Source: a phage
Sequence record: PZ445502.1
Length of the DNA: 50,979 nt
Direction: 5' to 3' (one strand)
Below are positions 5,333 to 50,979 of this stretch, one piece after another. Under the pieces are notes generated by a model, which made no database searches, was not told the DNA's origin, and saw nothing but the letters and a program-made list of their open reading frames with translations. Both the position numbers and the translations under genes were made by a program. Within the stretch, counting starts at the first letter, position 1. Every line of letters begins with the position of its first letter.

Positions 5333-5337
5333 AATTA

Positions 5338-5362
5338 AGGCGCTCGCTTGAGCGCCTTTTTT
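5338..5362 (+). terminator. rho-independent terminator
   Basis: GGCGCTCGCTTGAGCGCC hairpin followed by TTTTTT. Confidence 0.6.
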
Positions 5363-6209: not shown

Positions 6210-6215
6210 CATCTA

Positions 6216-6241
6216 GGCCGTTACATTTAACGGCCTTTTTT
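6216..6241 (+). terminator. hairpin plus T-run between motif and capsid gene
   Basis: GGCCGTTACATTTAACGGCC followed by TTTTTT. Confidence 0.45.
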
Positions 6242-7237: not shown

Positions 7238-7266
7238 TGGGGAGCCTTAAGGGTTCCCCTTTTTTA
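7238..7266 (+). terminator. rho-independent terminator
   Basis: GGGGAGCCTTAAGGGTTCCCC hairpin followed by TTTTTT. Confidence 0.65.
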
Positions 7267-10291: not shown

Positions 10292-10608
10292 AGCGGGCGG
10301 TTTACCTGTTTTACCTCAAGCCGCCAACTGACGCACAATTAGAGGCCGTCGGCCTATCCCGTTCAGACTACGAAGGGGAGGAGCCGCCGGAGGTAATTTT
10401 TGATGAATCAATGTTTCAATCTTGGGATCTGTTTTGCGCTATGCAGACGCAATGGAGATCGACTAGCGGCAGTGTGTATGGGTTCGACTATAACGTTTTG
10501 CCTATGCTTTTTGACATTTACAAGATTGAGGATCGGGAGATGGCGCTAAATGATTTGCGCATCATGGAACAAAAGGCGCTAGAAATGATTCATTCAAACA
10601 AAACATAA
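9974..10608 (+). CDS. tail assembly chaperone GT-like fusion made by -1 programmed frameshift at A_AAA_AAC (about 10282-10288)
   Basis: the -1 frame is open from about 10207 to 10608 and overlaps the end of the G frame; slippery heptamer sits just before the G stop. Confidence 0.5.
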
Positions 10609-10628
10609 GCGCCGCGAGGCGCTTTTTT
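10607..10628 (+). terminator. terminator-like hairpin between GT and tape measure
   Basis: GCGCCGCGAGGCGC hairpin followed by TTTTTT. Confidence 0.45.
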
Positions 10629-30135: not shown

Positions 30136-30554
30136 TGGCTATAACTGATAAAGGAGATTATCTTGAGTTTTACGAAAGAGATCCAACCGACACTAGAAAG
30201 GAAGTTAATCACCAGATAGATAGCTTTCAGTGGTTGACTTATGCTCATCCTTACTTGCTGGCGTGGCATACGGTAAACGAGAATGAGAAGTCTAAAGCAA
30301 CGGCGATGATTGATCAGCAGTCCGGCTTGGTTAAGGGTGTAAGCGATTTCATCATCCTGATTGGTTTAAACGGAAAATACCCATTTGCAGCGATTGAGAT
30401 CAAACGAGTGAATAAATCAGGCAAGGGTAAAGCATCACCAGTCAGCGATGAACAAAAGGCTTTTTTGCGTCGAGTTCGCAGCTTAGGAGGATTCGCTGCG
30501 GTCGCCTACGGATTTAATCAGTTTAAGTTGGCTATTGAATACATGCTTAAATAG
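30135..30554 (+). CDS. VRR-NUC domain nuclease
   Basis: 139 aa; acidic/Lys motif IEIKRVNKSGKG...Q..FL typical of VRR-NUC; ATGA overlap with helicase. Confidence 0.5.
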   Translation: MAITDKGDYLEFYERDPTDTRKEVNHQIDSFQWLTYAHPYLLAWHTVNENEKSKATAMIDQQSGLVKGVSDFIILIGLNGKYPFAAIEIKRVNKSGKGKASPVSDEQKAFLRRVRSLGGFAAVAYGFNQFKLAIEYMLK

Positions 30555-30594
30555 CACTTTTTGTTAAAACTTGCGCGATGGATTGCGCCATAAT
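30550..30594 (+). promoter_or_regulatory. motif-class promoter (motif, 22 nt, CATAAT)
   Basis: overlaps the stop TAG; GCGC inverted repeat in the spacer. Confidence 0.5.
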
Positions 30595-41754: not shown

Positions 41755-41783
41755 TTGACACGCACCAAATAGCTTTTATAATG
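41755..41783 (+). promoter_or_regulatory. sigma70-like promoter (TTGACA-N16-TATAAT) for the plus-strand early operon
   Basis: consensus hexamers at canonical spacing about 30 nt upstream of ATG 41814. Confidence 0.55.
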
Positions 41784-42278: not shown

Positions 42279-42547
42279 AAAAGGCATTAATCAGCGTTTT
42301 GGCGGCAATGGCATTCCTGACCGGATGCAAAGAAGATGGCGCGCATGTTGGCAATGTGCAGATGGCTAACCCTGGCGATGACTACAGCGTAAGGGAGCTA
42401 TTCACCGCTGACGGTTGCACCGTTTACCGATTCTATGACGATCGCACTGTTTACTTCACCAACTGCAAGGGCGCTACTAGCTGGGAAGTGTCGAAAAGCA
42501 ATGGCAAAGGCACGAAGACAGAACATATGACCGTCGAGACAAAATAG
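42275..42547 (+). CDS. small lipoprotein (second lipoprotein; Llp/Cor-like candidate)
   Basis: 90 aa; signal peptide with lipobox LTGC; ATGA overlap with the upstream gene. Confidence 0.5.
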   Translation: MKKALISVLAAMAFLTGCKEDGAHVGNVQMANPGDDYSVRELFTADGCTVYRFYDDRTVYFTNCKGATSWEVSKSNGKGTKTEHMTVETK

Positions 42548-42587
42548 CACTTTTTGTTAAAACGCCAGGCGCGAAGCCTGGCATAAT
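42543..42587 (+). promoter_or_regulatory. motif-class promoter (motif, 22 nt, CATAAT)
   Basis: GCCAGGC...GCCTGGC inverted repeat abutting the -10 box. Confidence 0.5.
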
Positions 42588-48036: not shown

Positions 48037-48327
48037 ATGGCAAACAAAACTTACCGCAAACTACTGGTTAACGCTTTTGAAAATATCGCGCAGTGTAACA
48101 AGTGGAACGACTCTAAACACTCGCCAGTCACAATGAAGCGCGCAGGATTCAAAAATGCTCGTTCATGGGCGCGAGCTTTCGCAGCTTGCTATATGCCGGA
48201 TGGCGGACTAGGGGTGATGAACGATTTTTTGATCAACATGATAGAGGAAGCGGCGCGAGAGGATCGACCGCTGACACAGCGAGATTTTGACGACTTCGCG
48301 CGCGATGAGCTTTACTATCTGAGCTAA
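48037..48327 (+). CDS. hypothetical protein
   Basis: 96 aa; AAGGGG SD. Confidence 0.4.
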   Translation: MANKTYRKLLVNAFENIAQCNKWNDSKHSPVTMKRAGFKNARSWARAFAACYMPDGGLGVMNDFLINMIEEAAREDRPLTQRDFDDFARDELYYLS

Positions 48328-48370
48328 TAGCACTTTTTGTTAAAACTTCCGCAAGGGCATTTGGTAAAGT
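48326..48370 (+). promoter_or_regulatory. motif-class promoter (motif, 22 nt, TAAAGT)
   Basis: AAGGGCA...TGCCCTT inverted repeat encloses the -10 box. Confidence 0.5.
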
Positions 48371-49186: not shown

Positions 49187-49256
49187 TTAAAAACGCATAG
49201 CCGTTAGAGCGCCTAAATCGCATTCTAACGAGCTATTTTTCTGGTAAGGTGATTTA

Positions 49257-49385
49257 ATGGATGAGTACAAACAACCTTCGCAATGGTGCAAAGAGAAGCA
49301 GGAGGAAGCACTTGAGCGCGGAGATGTAGAAGAAGCTATGAACTATTTCAAACTTGCGGAAGAATGGAAGGGGAGAGGATACTGA
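49257..49385 (+). CDS. small hypothetical protein
   Basis: 42 aa, not in the ORF track; AAGGTGA SD; TGATG overlap with the next gene. Confidence 0.3.
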   Translation: MDEYKQPSQWCKEKQEEALERGDVEEAMNYFKLAEEWKGRGY

Positions 49386-49615
49386 TGTTCGGCATGAACG
49401 AGGCGCAATTCAACGCAGCTAAACGCCAGGCTAAAAAGTGCGGCGAGGCAATGAAAGCGGATGTGGAAAAGCGCGGGAAGTATGTTGATGAAGTAATGAA
49501 GGGCATCATTGCAGAACACTACCAGCCAATCGCGCCAATGTTGACGATCACTCAATTCATTTGGCTATGTGGTTACTTGCGCGGACGTTGGGGGAACGCT
49601 TTCGACAGGGAATGA
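49385..49615 (+). CDS. hypothetical protein
   Basis: 76 aa from ATG 49385. Confidence 0.4.
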   Translation: MFGMNEAQFNAAKRQAKKCGEAMKADVEKRGKYVDEVMKGIIAEHYQPIAPMLTITQFIWLCGYLRGRWGNAFDRE

Positions 49616-49777
49616 TTGACAACTCTTTCCTGATTGGTTAGCATGGCGTCGTTTACATAAGAGCGGCTTGGTCCGAACGCGTGACGCGATAGTCACACAA
49701 CAACGGCGATATGCAGGAGGTTTTTGCAATGCAAAATAATCCGTAAGACGTATCGCCTTTTTTAATGGAGATTCAAA

Positions 49778-50011
49778 ATGATCAAATACAAATTAACCGT
49801 TTCTTTCCGTGATACCGTTATTCATCCTTTCCACAATAGCTTTGTTAACAGCTTTACAGTAGAAGCGACAGAGGATCAGTTGGACGGTGACGAAACTTGC
49901 ATTTCTATTGGAAATGTTGCTTACCCGATTCACAACATTACCAGCATTAAGCGTGAGGTTGTCGCTGATGAATTACAAAGTGAAGATGACGATCCGGCGA
50001 ATGGGGCGTAA
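49778..50011 (+). CDS. hypothetical acidic protein
   Basis: 77 aa; GGAG SD; preceded by a leader with a mini-ORF and hairpin. Confidence 0.4.
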   Translation: MIKYKLTVSFRDTVIHPFHNSFVNSFTVEATEDQLDGDETCISIGNVAYPIHNITSIKREVVADELQSEDDDPANGA

Positions 50012-50149
50012 TTGCCAATCCTGCAAACAGGAATATGAATGCGTAGTTGATGCTCTTGATGAACTGGAAGCGGTAGCAAAAGCAAAAGAGCAATCGGGCG
50101 CTAATCCTGAAACACATCAATTTTCAATTAATCTTGTGAGGGCTTTACA

Positions 50150-50374
50150 ATGATCGCATTATCTTTCTGCATTGGTTTTATCATGGCTATCATTATCTTT
50201 TCCGTTGTCATGCGCTTTGCTTATAAGTTCGTGATTAATAAAGGTTGGTACGCTTCTGCAATCTGGAGCGAAAAACAAAAGAAATGGCTTGTCCGTGGTC
50301 AATACCTGATGATCGGCAGCAAGATCCTAAATTCCATTCGAGCCAAAGATGGAAAAGTAAAATATACAGCTTAA
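50150..50374 (+). CDS. small membrane protein
   Basis: 74 aa; N-terminal TM helix; terminator follows. Confidence 0.4.
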   Translation: MIALSFCIGFIMAIIIFSVVMRFAYKFVINKGWYASAIWSEKQKKWLVRGQYLMIGSKILNSIRAKDGKVKYTA

Positions 50375-50406
50375 AAATTACCCGCCGCACGGCGGGTTTT
50401 TTATTG
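50374..50406 (+). terminator. rho-independent terminator
   Basis: ACCCGCCGCACGGCGGGT hairpin followed by TTTTTT. Confidence 0.65.
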
Positions 50407-50452
50407 CCCGTTGTCTGGTATAATCAGGCATCTAACCAAAGGAGGATTAATA

Positions 50453-50979
50453 ATGGCTAAAAATGTTGAGCCTGCTGTAAAGGCATTAAATTTCAAAGAG
50501 TTATACAATAAAACTTATGGCGATATTGTCACGCTAAACAACCGCCACAAGTACACGCCGGAACAGGTTTTTGATATGGCGATCCGCTATTTCACTTGGG
50601 CTGAAGAGAATCACATCCAGGCGGCTGAAACTGCTTCCTTTCAGGGTGACGTGTACGAGAGCAGAGTTTACAAGCCTCGCGTTTTCACGGTTAACGGATT
50701 CAGCTTGTATCTCGGCGTGACTGAGGCTGCCGTAAGCAAATGGCGTAAAGAGCCTGGATTCTGCGATGTGATGGAGTTTGTTGATAAAGTAATTTACGAG
50801 CAAAAATTCCAGCTTGCGGCAAATAACATGATTAACGCTGGATTTATCGGTAAAGAGATCGGAGTAGAGAAGCCAGCAACAGTGAGCGTTGAAGCGAGCG
50901 CGGCAGCTAATGCAAGCATTGACGCAGTAACTGCCGATGAGGTGAAAGAGGCTGTGATTGATATTCTGGAGCAACTTTA
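50453..50979 (+). CDS. terS: terminase small subunit, 3' end runs off the window
   Basis: GGAGG SD; HTH-like segment FSLYLGVTEAAVSKWRK; open to the last base; the final TA plus window base 1 would give TAATG coupling to terL. Confidence 0.6.
   Translation, partial: MAKNVEPAVKALNFKELYNKTYGDIVTLNNRHKYTPEQVFDMAIRYFTWAEENHIQAAETASFQGDVYESRVYKPRVFTVNGFSLYLGVTEAAVSKWRKEPGFCDVMEFVDKVIYEQKFQLAANNMINAGFIGKEIGVEKPATVSVEASAAANASIDAVTADEVKEAVIDILEQL

What the first reader, a model, noticed from the sequence alone, without database searches (positions are those of the whole stretch)
49616..49777. Leader with sigma70-like promoter, a 5-codon mini-ORF with strong SD, and a hairpin plus T-run
TTGACA-N17-TAGCAT near 49616 is followed by GGCGATA-TGCAGGAGGTTTTTGCAATGCAAAATAATCCGTAAGACG-TATCGCC-TTTTTT. 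The stem GGCGATA/TATCGCC with T-run looks like a terminator, and its loop encodes ATG CAA AAT AAT CCG TAA (MQNNP) behind an SD (GCAGGAGG). A translated mini-ORF inside a terminator stem is the arrangement used by leader-peptide attenuators, so expression of 49778..50374 may depend on translation status.
Basis: partly seen in the sequence, partly recalled or inferred. Interest (0 to 1): 0.45.

Follow-up and report, generated by a model that had tools for sequence, protein, structure and literature searches.

The report
Conserved non-coding leader RNA, T1-like phages
The promoter, hairpin and T-run are real, but they belong to a structured non-coding leader RNA of about 113 bases, apparently undescribed and conserved across the T1-like phage family (Drexlerviridae); the 5-codon mini-ORF is an accident of a lineage-specific hairpin extension, not a leader peptide.

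Summary
The window is a complete T1-like coliphage genome (Warwickvirus). The leader-peptide reading fails. The mini-ORF lies in a 17-nt apical extension of the hairpin found in only 2 of 15 distinct hairpin variants. Its start codon is ACG in 3 of 7 Warwickvirus genomes and TTG in one. Substitutions there preserve base pairing rather than the peptide.

The element is a promoter-proximal structured RNA: a sigma70 promoter, a conserved single-stranded 5' end (GUnnACAnAAGAG), two short hairpins and a long third hairpin. All three hairpins show strong compensatory covariation. A covariance model finds exactly one copy per genome, always just after the T1p59 homologue, in T1, TLS, Rtp, Rogunavirus, Webervirus, Eclunavirus and others. 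It matches no Rfam family and is annotated in none of the records inspected.

In Warwick-, Hanriver- and Henuseptimavirus the last hairpin is followed by a U-tract, so it probably acts as a translation-independent terminator or attenuator. That would release a 113-nt RNA, with read-through feeding genes 49778-50374. In other genera the homologous hairpin has no U-tract and runs into an ORF or a tRNA. The function of the conserved core is unknown; candidates are a 5' leader function, a trans-acting sRNA, or antitermination.

The parts
49616..49621 (+). -35 hexamer TTGACA. It directly follows the TGA stop codon (49613-49615) of the upstream T1p59-like gene.
   Evidence: In 47 distinct family members, TTGAC is conserved at -36..-32 relative to the conserved G.
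49639..49644 (+). -10 hexamer TAGCAT, preceded by the conserved CTGATTGG. The G at -15 resembles an extended -10 element.
   Evidence: Counts over 47 distinct sequences: T-13 42, A-12 37, T-8 38, G-15 43.
49651..49763 (+). Predicted 113-nt leader RNA, from the inferred start at G49651 to the end of the U-tract.
   Evidence: The start is inferred from promoter spacing and from conservation beginning exactly at this G (G+1 45/47, C-1 44/47). CM R1 scores it 98.6 bits and CM R2 64.6 bits. It is the only copy in the genome.
49651..49663 (+). Conserved single-stranded 5' segment GUUUACAUAAGAG. The family consensus is GUnnACAnAAGAG(G): an SD-like AAGAG(G) with no conserved start codon behind it.
   Evidence: U+2, A+5, C+6 and A+12 are invariant in 47 of 47 sequences.
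49664..49675 (+). Hairpin H1 (CGG-CUUGGU-CCG; 4 bp in most relatives).
   Evidence: Compensatory changes occur in 3 of 4 pairs in the MAFFT alignment A5 and in 4 of 4 in the CM-fitted alignment A6.
49681..49696 (+). Hairpin H2 (GUGAC-GCGAUA-GUCAC), preceded by the conserved linker GAACG (49675-49679; its G is also the last base of H1).
   Evidence: 4 of 5 pairs show compensatory changes, with 98% of cells paired. Examples: GUGGC/GCCAC, GUAGC/GCUAC, CCAG/CUGG and GCGGC/GCCGC.
49705..49757 (+). It has a 9-bp basal stem (49705-13 with 49749-57) and a 3-bp middle helix (49716-18 with 49740-42). It also has a lineage-specific apical hairpin (49722-36) and a conserved internal loop GUAAGA (49743-48).
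   Evidence: -19.7 kcal/mol. In 15 distinct sequences 96% of cells are paired. 8 of 12 pairs show compensatory changes against 3.4 +/- 1.1 in shuffles (0 of 500 reach the observed value).
49729..49746 (+). Mini-ORF ATG CAA AAT AAT CCG TAA (MQNNP), with GGAGG at 49716-49720. Judged incidental.
   Evidence: Searches show that the start codon is not conserved, even within the genus.
49758..49763 (+). U-tract (T6) abutting the H3 stem; probable intrinsic termination point.
   Evidence: A U-rich tract of 4-9 nt is present in all Warwick-, Hanriver- and Henuseptimavirus variants. It is absent after the homologous hairpin in T1, TLS, Ec_L1 and CRES7.
49778..50374 (+). Three small genes fed by read-through: 49778-50011 (77 aa, no family), 49968-50153 (phrog_2919, T1p56-like) and 50150-50374 (DUF7299). 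The SD GGAG is at 49767-49770.
   Evidence: Only 14 nt separate the U-tract from the ATG, so there is no room for another promoter.
50380..50397 (+). Strong intrinsic terminator ending this small operon. A conserved extended -10 promoter for terS follows it.
   Evidence: (-13.3 kcal/mol, T6).
49385..49615 (+). Upstream T1p59-like gene (76 aa, phrog_303). It is the syntenic landmark for the leader in all genera.
   Evidence: (834 phage records).

Best explanation
The region is the local form of a non-coding, promoter-proximal leader RNA module conserved throughout the T1-like phages (Drexlerviridae).

Proposed mechanism:
- Host sigma70 RNA polymerase starts at about G49651.
- The nascent RNA has a conserved unpaired 5' end (GUUUACAUAAGAG) and folds into H1, H2 and the long H3.
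- In this lineage H3 abuts a U6 tract, so a fraction of polymerases terminate at 49758-63 and release an RNA of about 113 nt.
- The remainder read through and make the mRNA for the three small genes 49778-50374, which ends at the strong terminator 50380-97.
- Termination does not depend on translation. The MQNNP mini-ORF is a by-product of a 17-nt apical extension of H3.

Shown here: the conservation, the structure, the single copy per genome, the fixed synteny, and the non-conservation of the mini-ORF.

Inferred: the start site, termination at the U-tract, and the split between short RNA and read-through.

Unknown: what the conserved 5' segment, H1 and H2 do. My leading guess is a function tied to the transcript's 5' end, such as marking or protecting the leader, or binding a factor. 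The reason is that in most genera the module is simply the 5' UTR of whatever ORF or tRNA follows.
For: - Identity of the window: a Warwickvirus genome, 99.8% identical to vB_EcoS_XY3.
- The intergenic region is conserved in 130 phage records, down to about 70% identity.
- RNAalifold on 16 sequences gives three hairpins.
- H1 and H2 on a MAFFT alignment of 23 diverse leaders: 96.1% of cells paired against 67.4 +/- 2.3 in shuffles. 7 of 9 pairs have double changes. Slid controls fall to 22-51% paired. The CM-fitted set of 42 distinct sequences gives 97.3% paired.
- H3: 96.1% paired, and 8 of 12 pairs have double changes, with 0 of 500 shuffles reaching that.
- CM R2 finds one hit per genome (window 64.6 bits, T1 56.5 bits). 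The hit is always on the gene strand just after the T1p59 homologue, in Tempevirinae, Tunavirus, Rtpvirus, Rogunavirus, Webervirus and Eclunavirus.
- The promoter and the +1 context are conserved in 47 distinct sequences.
- BLAST homology to BEK7 and A16a stops exactly at the end of the T-run, where a different gene follows. The leader therefore behaves as a separate module.
- The H3 stem plus U-tract has the same layout as at least five other hairpin-T6-GGAG-ATG junctions in this genome.
- The mini-ORF is not conserved.
Against: - There are no transcript data. The start site, the 3' end and the termination efficiency are all inferred.
- The -10 hexamer (TAGCAT) is imperfect.
- H3 encloses 35 nt between the arms of its basal stem, which may slow terminator folding. 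The simple terminator scan does not call it.
- The U-tract is short or interrupted in several relatives: A14a has 4 U, Henu7 has GUUUUAAC, and L091 has CCUUCUUUCC.
- In T1, TLS, Ec_L1 and CRES7 the homologous hairpin has no U-tract at all. Termination therefore cannot be the ancestral or core role.
- The shuffle controls do not correct for relatedness of the sequences.
- The function of the conserved core remains unassigned.
Confidence: 0.6

Rival explanations
1. Stand-alone trans-acting small RNA. The promoter, the 113-nt RNA and the intrinsic terminator form an sRNA gene. Its conserved unpaired 5' end (GUnnACAnAAGAG) would be a seed that pairs with a host mRNA, possibly with help from Hfq or ProQ. 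In genera without the U-tract, the same RNA would be released by processing: RNase P where a tRNA follows, or RNase E at the A(A)CCAUUC box.
For: - The layout of promoter, roughly 100 nt of RNA, GC-rich hairpin and U6 is the classic sRNA gene architecture.
- The most conserved part is the single-stranded 5' end starting at +1, as in sRNAs that carry their seed at the 5' end (general knowledge).
- The module stays intact while the downstream gene is swapped.
- In Rtp, JK06, L139 and L152 a tRNA follows, so the leader would be cut off as a separate RNA.
Against: - In most genera there is no terminator, and the first gene's SD lies within about 5-10 nt of the last hairpin, either directly behind the CAUUC box or behind H2. 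That is how a 5' UTR looks.
- No complementary site to the 5' motif exists in the phage genomes. The window has 15 sites with up to 3 mismatches against 13.5 expected, and T1 has none on a sense strand.
- Host targets could not be searched.
- There is no similarity to E. coli sequence.
Confidence: 0.22
2. Cis-acting processive antitermination element, working like HK022 put or a nut site. The nascent H1-H2 RNA, alone or with a phage protein, would modify the polymerase that made it. That polymerase would then read through H3, the terminator at 50380, and the many terminators of the late region.
For: - The + strand late region has an excess of strong intrinsic terminators: 28 against 15.9 +/- 4.5 expected. 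T1's annotation lists 11 between terL and the tail genes, plus one just upstream of terS.
- Five terminators in the window are followed directly by SD and ATG with no room for a promoter. Some form of read-through is therefore needed.
- The element sits next to a promoter, consists of two hairpins, and does not depend on whether an ORF or a tRNA follows.
- In this lineage a terminator sits between the promoter and its genes.
Against: - Every genus has its own conserved extended -10 promoter between the strong terminator and terS. The late genes therefore do not need this promoter.
- CM R2 finds nothing in HK022; the best score is 5.1 bits.
- No boxA occurs on the sense strand.
- No Q-, N- or other antiterminator family was found in the five neighbouring proteins scanned.
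- The TLS and T1 literature attributes the late region to modules with their own promoters or enhancers (PMC11447400).
Confidence: 0.12
3. Leader-peptide attenuator. Translation of MQNNP inside the terminator hairpin would decide whether the terminator forms.
For: In this genome a GGAGG sits 8 nt before an ATG inside the hairpin, and the stop codon lies 2 nt before the 3' arm.
Against: - The ORF lies in a lineage-specific 17-nt insertion, and the ATG occurs in only 2 of 15 hairpin variants.
- Within the genus the start codon is ACG in tonijn, Poky and SECphi27, and TTG in tonnikala.
- The substitutions are compensatory for the helix.
- No conserved antiterminator pairing exists.
- Part of the SD and the G of the AUG are paired in the hairpin; the A and U of the AUG are in its apical loop.
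- The AUG is only 34 nt from the end of the U-tract. That leaves little time for a ribosome to load before polymerase reaches the release point (inference).
Confidence: 0.03
4. DNA-level element, or a trivial juxtaposition. The hairpins would act in single-stranded DNA (a replication or priming signal, or a packaging site). Alternatively, the hairpin is merely the terminator of the upstream early operon and happens to follow an unrelated promoter-like sequence.
For: - Upstream transcripts have no terminator before this point, so H3 would also end the early operon.
- Covariation alone cannot distinguish RNA hairpins from ssDNA hairpins.
Against: - Conservation starts exactly at the predicted +1, at a fixed 7 nt from a conserved -10 element.
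- The element always lies on the transcribed strand.
- G-U pairs are tolerated on the sense strand. U13-G51 occurs in 13 of 15 H3 sequences, and G-U also appears in H2. These would be A-C mismatches on the opposite strand.
- T1's pac end lies about 7.6 kb away (repeat_region 1-2800).
- The promoter is conserved family-wide, so it is not a chance site.
Confidence: 0.03

Closest known systems
Leader-peptide transcription attenuators (trpL, hisL, pheL; ermCL and catA86L for the translational form)
   Same: A short leader lies between a promoter and the structural genes, and it ends in a hairpin plus U-tract just before the first gene. This one genome also has a tiny ORF with an SD.
   Different: The ORF is not conserved and has no regulatory codons. 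No alternative antiterminator pairing exists. The ORF lies wholly inside the apical part of the terminator hairpin. The conserved features are RNA helices and unpaired motifs, not a peptide.
Phage lambda PR'-6S RNA-tR' module (Q-dependent) and HK022 put RNAs (processive antitermination)
   Same: A constitutive sigma70 promoter is followed by a short non-coding transcript ending at a terminator, upstream of the packaging and morphogenesis genes. As in put, two promoter-proximal hairpins are present. The genome also has many terminators to be read through.
   Different: No sequence or structure match to HK022 was found. The stems are much shorter than I recall for put. No Q-, N- or Nun-like protein was identified. 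terS has its own promoter. In most genera no terminator follows the element. Antitermination has not been tested.
Hfq-type bacterial or prophage sRNAs with a 5' seed and an intrinsic terminator (RybB-like architecture; the prophage sRNA DicF)
   Same: It has its own promoter, is about 100 nt long, has a conserved unpaired 5' end, and ends in a GC-rich terminal hairpin with a U-tract.
   Different: In most family members it is continuous with an mRNA or tRNA precursor. No target has been identified, and it belongs to no Rfam family.
5'-proximal SD-like mRNA stabilisers (STAB-SD of Bacillus thuringiensis cryIIIA) and 5' UTR stabilising hairpins (ompA)
   Same: An SD-like AAGAG(G) lies about 9-14 nt from the RNA 5' end with no start codon behind it, and hairpins follow.
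   Different: STAB-SD is described in Gram-positive bacteria, which have RNase J. There is no evidence of 30S binding here. The motif is also kept where a tRNA follows.

Membership tests
Leader-peptide attenuator | A short translated ORF in the leader, conserved among relatives. | tested here: not met
   The ATG is present in 2 of 15 hairpin variants. Within Warwickvirus it is ACG in 3 of 7 genomes and TTG in 1 of 7. Most relatives lack the 17-nt segment altogether.
Leader-peptide attenuator | Mutually exclusive terminator and antiterminator pairings, whose choice depends on ribosome position. | tested here: not met
   I folded four family members with the 3' arm blocked. This gave unrelated alternative structures with no conserved antiterminator.
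Leader-peptide attenuator | Regulatory codons in the peptide that relate to the controlled genes. | tested here: inconclusive
   The peptide is MQNNP (MQYNP in JLBYU41). The downstream genes have unknown function, so no link can be assessed.
Intrinsic (Rho-independent) terminator | A GC-rich stem directly followed by a U-tract of at least 4-6 nt. | tested here: met
   A 9-bp basal stem with 4 G-C pairs at its base abuts U6, and the whole hairpin is -19.7 kcal/mol. The stem is maintained by covariation. A loop over 8 nt keeps it out of the simple scan.
Intrinsic (Rho-independent) terminator | Transcript 3' ends at the U-tract in vivo or in vitro. | not testable with these tools
   No transcript data could be obtained.
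HK022 put-type antiterminator RNA | Homology to putL or putR. | tested here: not met
   CM R2 run over the whole HK022 genome with filters off gave a best score of 5.1 bits, E = 5.
HK022 put-type antiterminator RNA | Acts in cis to make polymerase resistant to downstream terminators. | not testable with these tools
   Only circumstantial evidence exists: many terminators lie downstream.
Lambda nut / rrn antitermination site | A boxA sequence (CGCUCUUA or UGCUCUUUAACAA) on the transcript, next to a boxB hairpin. | tested here: not met
   TAAGAGCG (49658-49665) is the reverse complement of lambda boxA. The transcript therefore carries the complement, not boxA, and the match is absent in other genera (GAGGCGC, GAGGCUC).
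Any Rfam 15 family | A covariance-model match at the gathering score. | tested here: not met
   No match in the window. At E<=10 only one chance-level hit was returned, to snoRNA SNORD26 (12.9 bits against a gathering score of 44, E = 6.6), and it lies over the promoter region. In 9 loci from other genera only tRNAs reached gathering score. A relaxed scan (E<=1) of six of them gave only sub-gathering hits outside the leaders.
Trans-acting sRNA gene | Own promoter, a discrete terminator, and a conserved unpaired seed. | tested here: inconclusive
   All three features are present in this lineage. The terminator is missing in most genera, and no target was found in the phage genomes.

The most novel reading that the evidence does not exclude
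The leader is an RNA-based processive antitermination device of T1-like phages. The nascent 5' motif-H1-H2 RNA, alone or with a small phage protein, stays with the polymerase that made it. That polymerase can then pass H3, the terminator at 50380 and the SD-abutting terminators that punctuate about 20 kb of packaging and morphogenesis genes. This would be a second RNA family, unrelated to put, that reprograms E. coli RNA polymerase. It would also explain how a phage with no polymerase of its own expresses a terminator-studded late region.
Probability: 0.12. Interest if true: 0.8.

Novelty: new variant of a known kind. Interest (0 to 1): 0.55.

Why it matters
T1 is one of the classical coliphages, and Drexlerviridae are among the most frequently isolated phages of E. 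coli and Klebsiella. Their transcriptional control is nevertheless almost unknown.

This structured RNA is single-copy, sits next to a promoter, and is conserved from T1 to Webervirus and Rtp. It is absent from Rfam and from every annotation I inspected. That makes it a concrete, testable handle on how these phages organise early-to-late expression or manipulate the host.

It also has practical consequences. Several GenBank CDS starts are drawn through the RNA and need correcting. The work also shows how a persuasive mini-ORF with an SD can arise by chance in the variable tip of an RNA hairpin.

Tried and rejected
- Rfam at gathering and relaxed thresholds, on the window and on 9 distant loci: nothing but tRNAs and noise.
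- ARAGORN on the window: no tRNA or tmRNA.
- blastn of the region against 5,426 E. coli genomes: no match, so it does not mimic a host RNA at the sequence level.
- Search for sites complementary to the 5' motif: chance level in the window (15 against 13.5 expected) and none usable in T1.
- The idea that the 5' motif is a general phage element. A pattern scan of IMG/VR gave at least 120 hits against 27 for a reversed-motif control. The roughly 35 non-Drexlerviridae hits are ordinary short 5' UTRs, in which AAGAGG is the real SD followed by a start codon. That is about the control number, so the idea was rejected.
- A pseudoknot between 5' UUUAC and the GUAAG loop. It appears in window and vojen when the 3' arm is blocked, but it does not covary (GUAGAC, GUGAAC and GUAAAC occur with an unchanged CCGUAA).
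- H2 loop GCGAUA pairing with the H3 3' arm as an antiterminator. By eye on alignment A1 this works only in some lineages.
- The boxA resemblance lies on the wrong strand and is lineage-specific.
- The 23-aa TTG ORF at 49668-49739 and comparable ORFs seen by eye in relatives are not conserved.
- Pfam and PHROGs on five neighbouring proteins gave only families of unknown function.
- Literature searches for a T1-like sRNA, antitermination or transcriptome found nothing relevant. The exception is the TLS re-annotation (PMC11447400), whose promoter list does not appear to include this promoter.
- RNAalifold on full-length TLS- and T1-type leaders recovered only H1 and H2, because MAFFT could not align the variable middle hairpins.
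Full report
**What the window is.** The 50,979-base window is a complete, circularly permuted genome of a T1-like coliphage (Drexlerviridae, Tempevirinae, Warwickvirus). Region 49200-50500 is 99.8% identical to Escherichia phage vB_EcoS_XY3 and 98-99% identical to tunus, swan01, SECphi27 and others. The window starts at the terL ATG and ends inside the terS stop codon. The finding lies in the 162-nt gap between a 76-aa gene at 49385-49615 and three small genes at 49778-50374. The upstream gene is the homologue of T1 gene 59; some records annotate it 'ipe'. The three small genes are followed by a strong terminator at 50380-97 and then by terS.

**Observation.**
- TTGACA is at 49616-21, followed by a 17-nt spacer and TAGCAT at 49639-44. 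This scores 10 of 12 and is the best promoter-like site in 47-51 kb.
- The stem GGCGATA/TATCGCC extends to 9 bp, at 49705-13 with 49749-57.
- T6 is at 49758-63, GGAGG at 49716-20, and ATG CAA AAT AAT CCG TAA at 49729-46.

On their own these would be weak. Promoter-like sites are not enriched in the region (6 found, 6.8 expected). The hairpin escapes the terminator scan because its loop is too long. It folds into a three-tier hairpin of -19.7 kcal/mol.

**Comparative test of the mini-ORF.** blastn finds the intergenic region in 130 phage records, down to about 70% identity. An alignment of 17 representatives shows the region is highly conserved, but the mini-ORF is not.
- The ORF sits in a 17-nt segment present only in Warwickvirus and in JLBYU41/grams. 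All other relatives read GCAGG-UUUUUA-CCGUAAG there and have no ATG.
- Among 15 distinct versions of the hairpin, only two carry the ATG.
- Within Warwickvirus the RNA is otherwise almost invariant. The three bases that include the start codon read AAU(G) in window, XY3 and mar001J1. They read AAC(G) in tonijn, Poky and SECphi27, and AUU(G) in tonnikala. These bases form the apical loop of the hairpin and vary freely.
- Between window and JLBYU41 the only changes in the apical stem are a compensatory pair, UUUUGC/GCAAAA versus UAUUGC/GCAAUA. This is what turns N into Y in the 'peptide'.
- An IMG/VR relative (L088) has a different apical hairpin, UCCGC-AAG-GCGGA, at the same position and no ATG.
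- Folding four relatives with the 3' arm blocked gives no common antiterminator.

The leader-peptide model is therefore not supported.

**What is conserved instead.** RNAalifold on 16 sequences predicts three hairpins after a 13-nt unpaired 5' end. A covariance model of the whole RNA (R1) hits the window once, at 49651-49763 with 98.6 bits.

The upstream protein has homologues in 834 phage records across Drexlerviridae. I fetched the region behind that gene from distant genera: Henu7, Sazh (Tlsvirus), KP36 (Webervirus), JK06 (Rogunavirus), Rtp, Ec_L1 and CRES7, plus the whole T1 genome. I also fetched 80 IMG/VR loci found with a protein alignment. All of them carry the following, in the same place and orientation:
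- a sigma70 promoter;
- a C followed by a G exactly 7 nt after the -10 element;
- the motif GUnnACAnAAGAG(G);
- a 4-5-bp hairpin H1;
- the linker AAC(G)C;
- a 5-6-bp hairpin H2.

The stem sequences are entirely different from genus to genus. H1 is CGGC/GCCG, GCUC/GAGC, GCGC/GCGC, GCCC/GGGU or GCCAC/GUGGC. H2 is GUGAC/GUCAC, GUGGC/GCCAC, GUAGC/GCUAC, CCAG/CUGG, GCGGC/GCCGC, GUGAGA/UCUCAC or GCCCC/GGGGC.

On a MAFFT alignment of 23 diverse leaders, not fitted to the structure, 96.1% of pair cells are standard pairs, against 67.4 +/- 2.3 in shuffles. Seven of 9 pairs show double changes. Sliding the 3' partners by 1-3 columns drops pairing to 22-51%. A core model (R2) finds one hit per genome (window 64.6 bits, T1 56.5 bits). 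No second copy appears even with filters off. The fitted alignment of 42 distinct sequences is 97.3% paired.

The promoter is conserved in 47 distinct sequences: TTGAC at -36..-32, G-15, T-13, A-12 and T-8. Sequence conservation then begins exactly at the predicted +1. Sense-strand G-U pairs are tolerated. All this points to an RNA rather than a DNA structure.

**The third hairpin.** In Warwick-, Hanriver- and Henuseptimavirus, H3 has four parts:
- a 9-bp basal stem;
- a small middle helix;
- an invariant asymmetric internal loop, (G/A)UAAGA on the 3' side;
- a variable tip.

In this group 96.1% of cells are paired, and 8 of 12 pairs have compensatory changes against 3.4 +/- 1.1 in shuffles. 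A U-rich tract of 4-9 nt always follows.

In T1, TLS-like phages, Ec_L1, Rtp and JK06 the last hairpin of the leader is shorter, for example GCCGC-AGACCCGUAA-GCGGC or GCGGG-AACCGUAA-CCCGC. Its loop ends in the same CCGUAA. No U-tract follows; instead there is a conserved A(A)CCAUUC box and then the SD of the next gene. CRES7 also has the box, but its loop lacks the CCGUAA motif. Contig L244 has both the AUUUUU tract and the ACCCAUUCAGGAG box, which links the two forms.

Webervirus lacks this third module. There H2 is followed by UUUUAUU or AUUUACA and then by SD and AUG.

What follows the leader varies. It is a 77-aa gene here, a T1p57 homologue in T1, Henu7 and TLS, and a T1p56-like zinc-ribbon gene in BEK7, KP36, Ec_L1 and CRES7. 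In Rtp, JK06, L139 and L152 it is a tRNA gene. BLAST homology to BEK7 and A16a ends exactly at the end of the T-run. The leader is therefore a self-contained module.

**Mechanism proposed for this window.** Host RNA polymerase starts at about G49651. H1, H2 and H3 fold. At the U6 tract some polymerases release a 113-nt RNA, and the others continue into 49778-50374 and stop at 50380-97. The 14 nt between the U-tract and the ATG leave no room for another promoter. The three genes are conserved, so H3 must be leaky or overridden (inference).

H3 plus T6 plus AAUGGAG-N7-AUG has the same layout as at least five other junctions in the late region: 1597, 5337, 6215, 7239 and 10607. That region carries an excess of strong terminators, 28 against 15.9 +/- 4.5 expected. 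T1's annotation likewise lists 11 terminators between terL and the tail genes, plus one just upstream of terS.

**Function of the conserved core.** This remains open. The main candidates are:
- **5' UTR function.** The 5' motif contains an SD-like AAGAG(G) with no start codon behind it. It resembles the start of the terS 5' UTR, CAACAAAGGAGG. In most genera the RNA is plainly a 5' UTR. A role at the transcript's 5' end, such as 30S or protein docking, protection or processing, is my leading guess.
- **Trans-acting sRNA.** The architecture in this lineage fits this well, but no target was found in the phage and host targets could not be searched.
- **put-like antitermination.** This is attractive because of the terminator-rich late region. 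It is weakened by a conserved extended -10 promoter just upstream of terS in all seven genera examined. It is further weakened by the absence of any match to HK022, and by the 'transcripton' view of the late region in the TLS/T1 literature (PMC11447400).

**Comparison with what is known.** There is no Rfam family, no similarity to E. coli sequence, and no RNA annotated here in any of the phage records inspected. The TLS re-annotation lists three sigma70 promoters; a text search of its supplementary table did not find this one. Several records draw the downstream CDS through the hairpin.

I rate the element as a new RNA family of a known general kind, a phage leader RNA or sRNA with an intrinsic terminator. 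The original leader-peptide reading is rejected.

**Caveats.**
- All transcript features are inferred from sequence.
- The shuffle controls ignore phylogeny, although the slid controls and the number of independent stem sequences make structure-free conservation very unlikely.
- The homology of H3 with the CCGUAA hairpins of other genera rests on position, on the shared loop motif and on one intermediate sequence. It does not rest on a model-based alignment.

Noticed in passing
window, 22 sites, e.g. 1566-1584, 30551-30569, 42544-42562, 48327-48345: The 19-nt core (ATAGCACTTTTTGTTAAAA) of a 21-nt direct repeat occurs 22 times allowing up to 3 mismatches, against 2.7 expected. Most copies lie in the 26-48 kb early/middle region and point in the direction of transcription. 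The same element is described for phage TLS (PMC11447400), with unknown function.
   Followed up: partly
window + strand: 1597-1618, 5337-5358, 6215-6236, 7239-7259, 10607-10624 (also 9878, 13686, 15821, 19474): The late (packaging, head, tail) region is punctuated by strong intrinsic terminators: 28 against 15.9 +/- 4.5 expected in 1-16 kb. Five of them are followed within a few bases by GGAG and ATG, with no room for a promoter. How polymerase gets through them is unexplained.
   Followed up: partly
window 50414-50424 (TCTGGTATAAT), between terminator 50380-97 and the terS ATG at 50453: An extended -10-type promoter (TGnTATAAT) sits directly after the strong terminator. It is conserved at the same place in T1, Sazh, KP36, Henu7, Ec_L1 and Rtp.
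   Followed up: partly
L073:2095-2168 (Rtp), L072:2203-2275 (JK06), L152:2022-2173 (two), L139:2102-2186: In several genera one or two tRNA genes are inserted directly behind the leader's last hairpin and its ACUCAUUC box, ahead of the first ORF.
   Followed up: partly
L005, L007, L009, L017 (CDS from locus position 730-732); L070 CDS 1863-2072: The GenBank CDS starts of the gene after the leader are drawn through the leader hairpin in G29-2, slyngel, pSf-1 and damhaus, and inside the leader in Sazh. They ignore the conserved SD and ATG further downstream and are probably mis-annotated.
   Followed up: no
phage records MG065636, MG065641, MG065643 and others (L010, L015): About 20 'UNVERIFIED Campylobacter phage' records are T1-like Hanrivervirus genomes that carry this leader. 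The stated host looks doubtful.
   Followed up: no
window 41755-41782: A perfect consensus sigma70 promoter (TTGACA-16-TATAAT) lies at the start of the + strand early gene block that runs up to the finding.
   Followed up: no
window 49668-49739: A 23-codon TTG ORF overlaps H1, H2 and H3 and lies 4 nt after the SD-like AAGAG. It is not conserved in other genera, where compensatory stem changes dominate.
   Followed up: yes
TLS-type leaders, e.g. L096:1787-1900 and L204; T1 L076:7676-7720: Between H2 and the last hairpin, non-Warwickvirus leaders carry an extra conserved AAAUCGG box. They also carry a two-tier hairpin with apparent compensatory changes (GAUUG/CAAUC versus GAUGG/CCAUC; UCGC/GCGA versus UUGC/GCAA). 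The ancestral leader is therefore a four-hairpin RNA of about 115-130 nt.
   Followed up: partly
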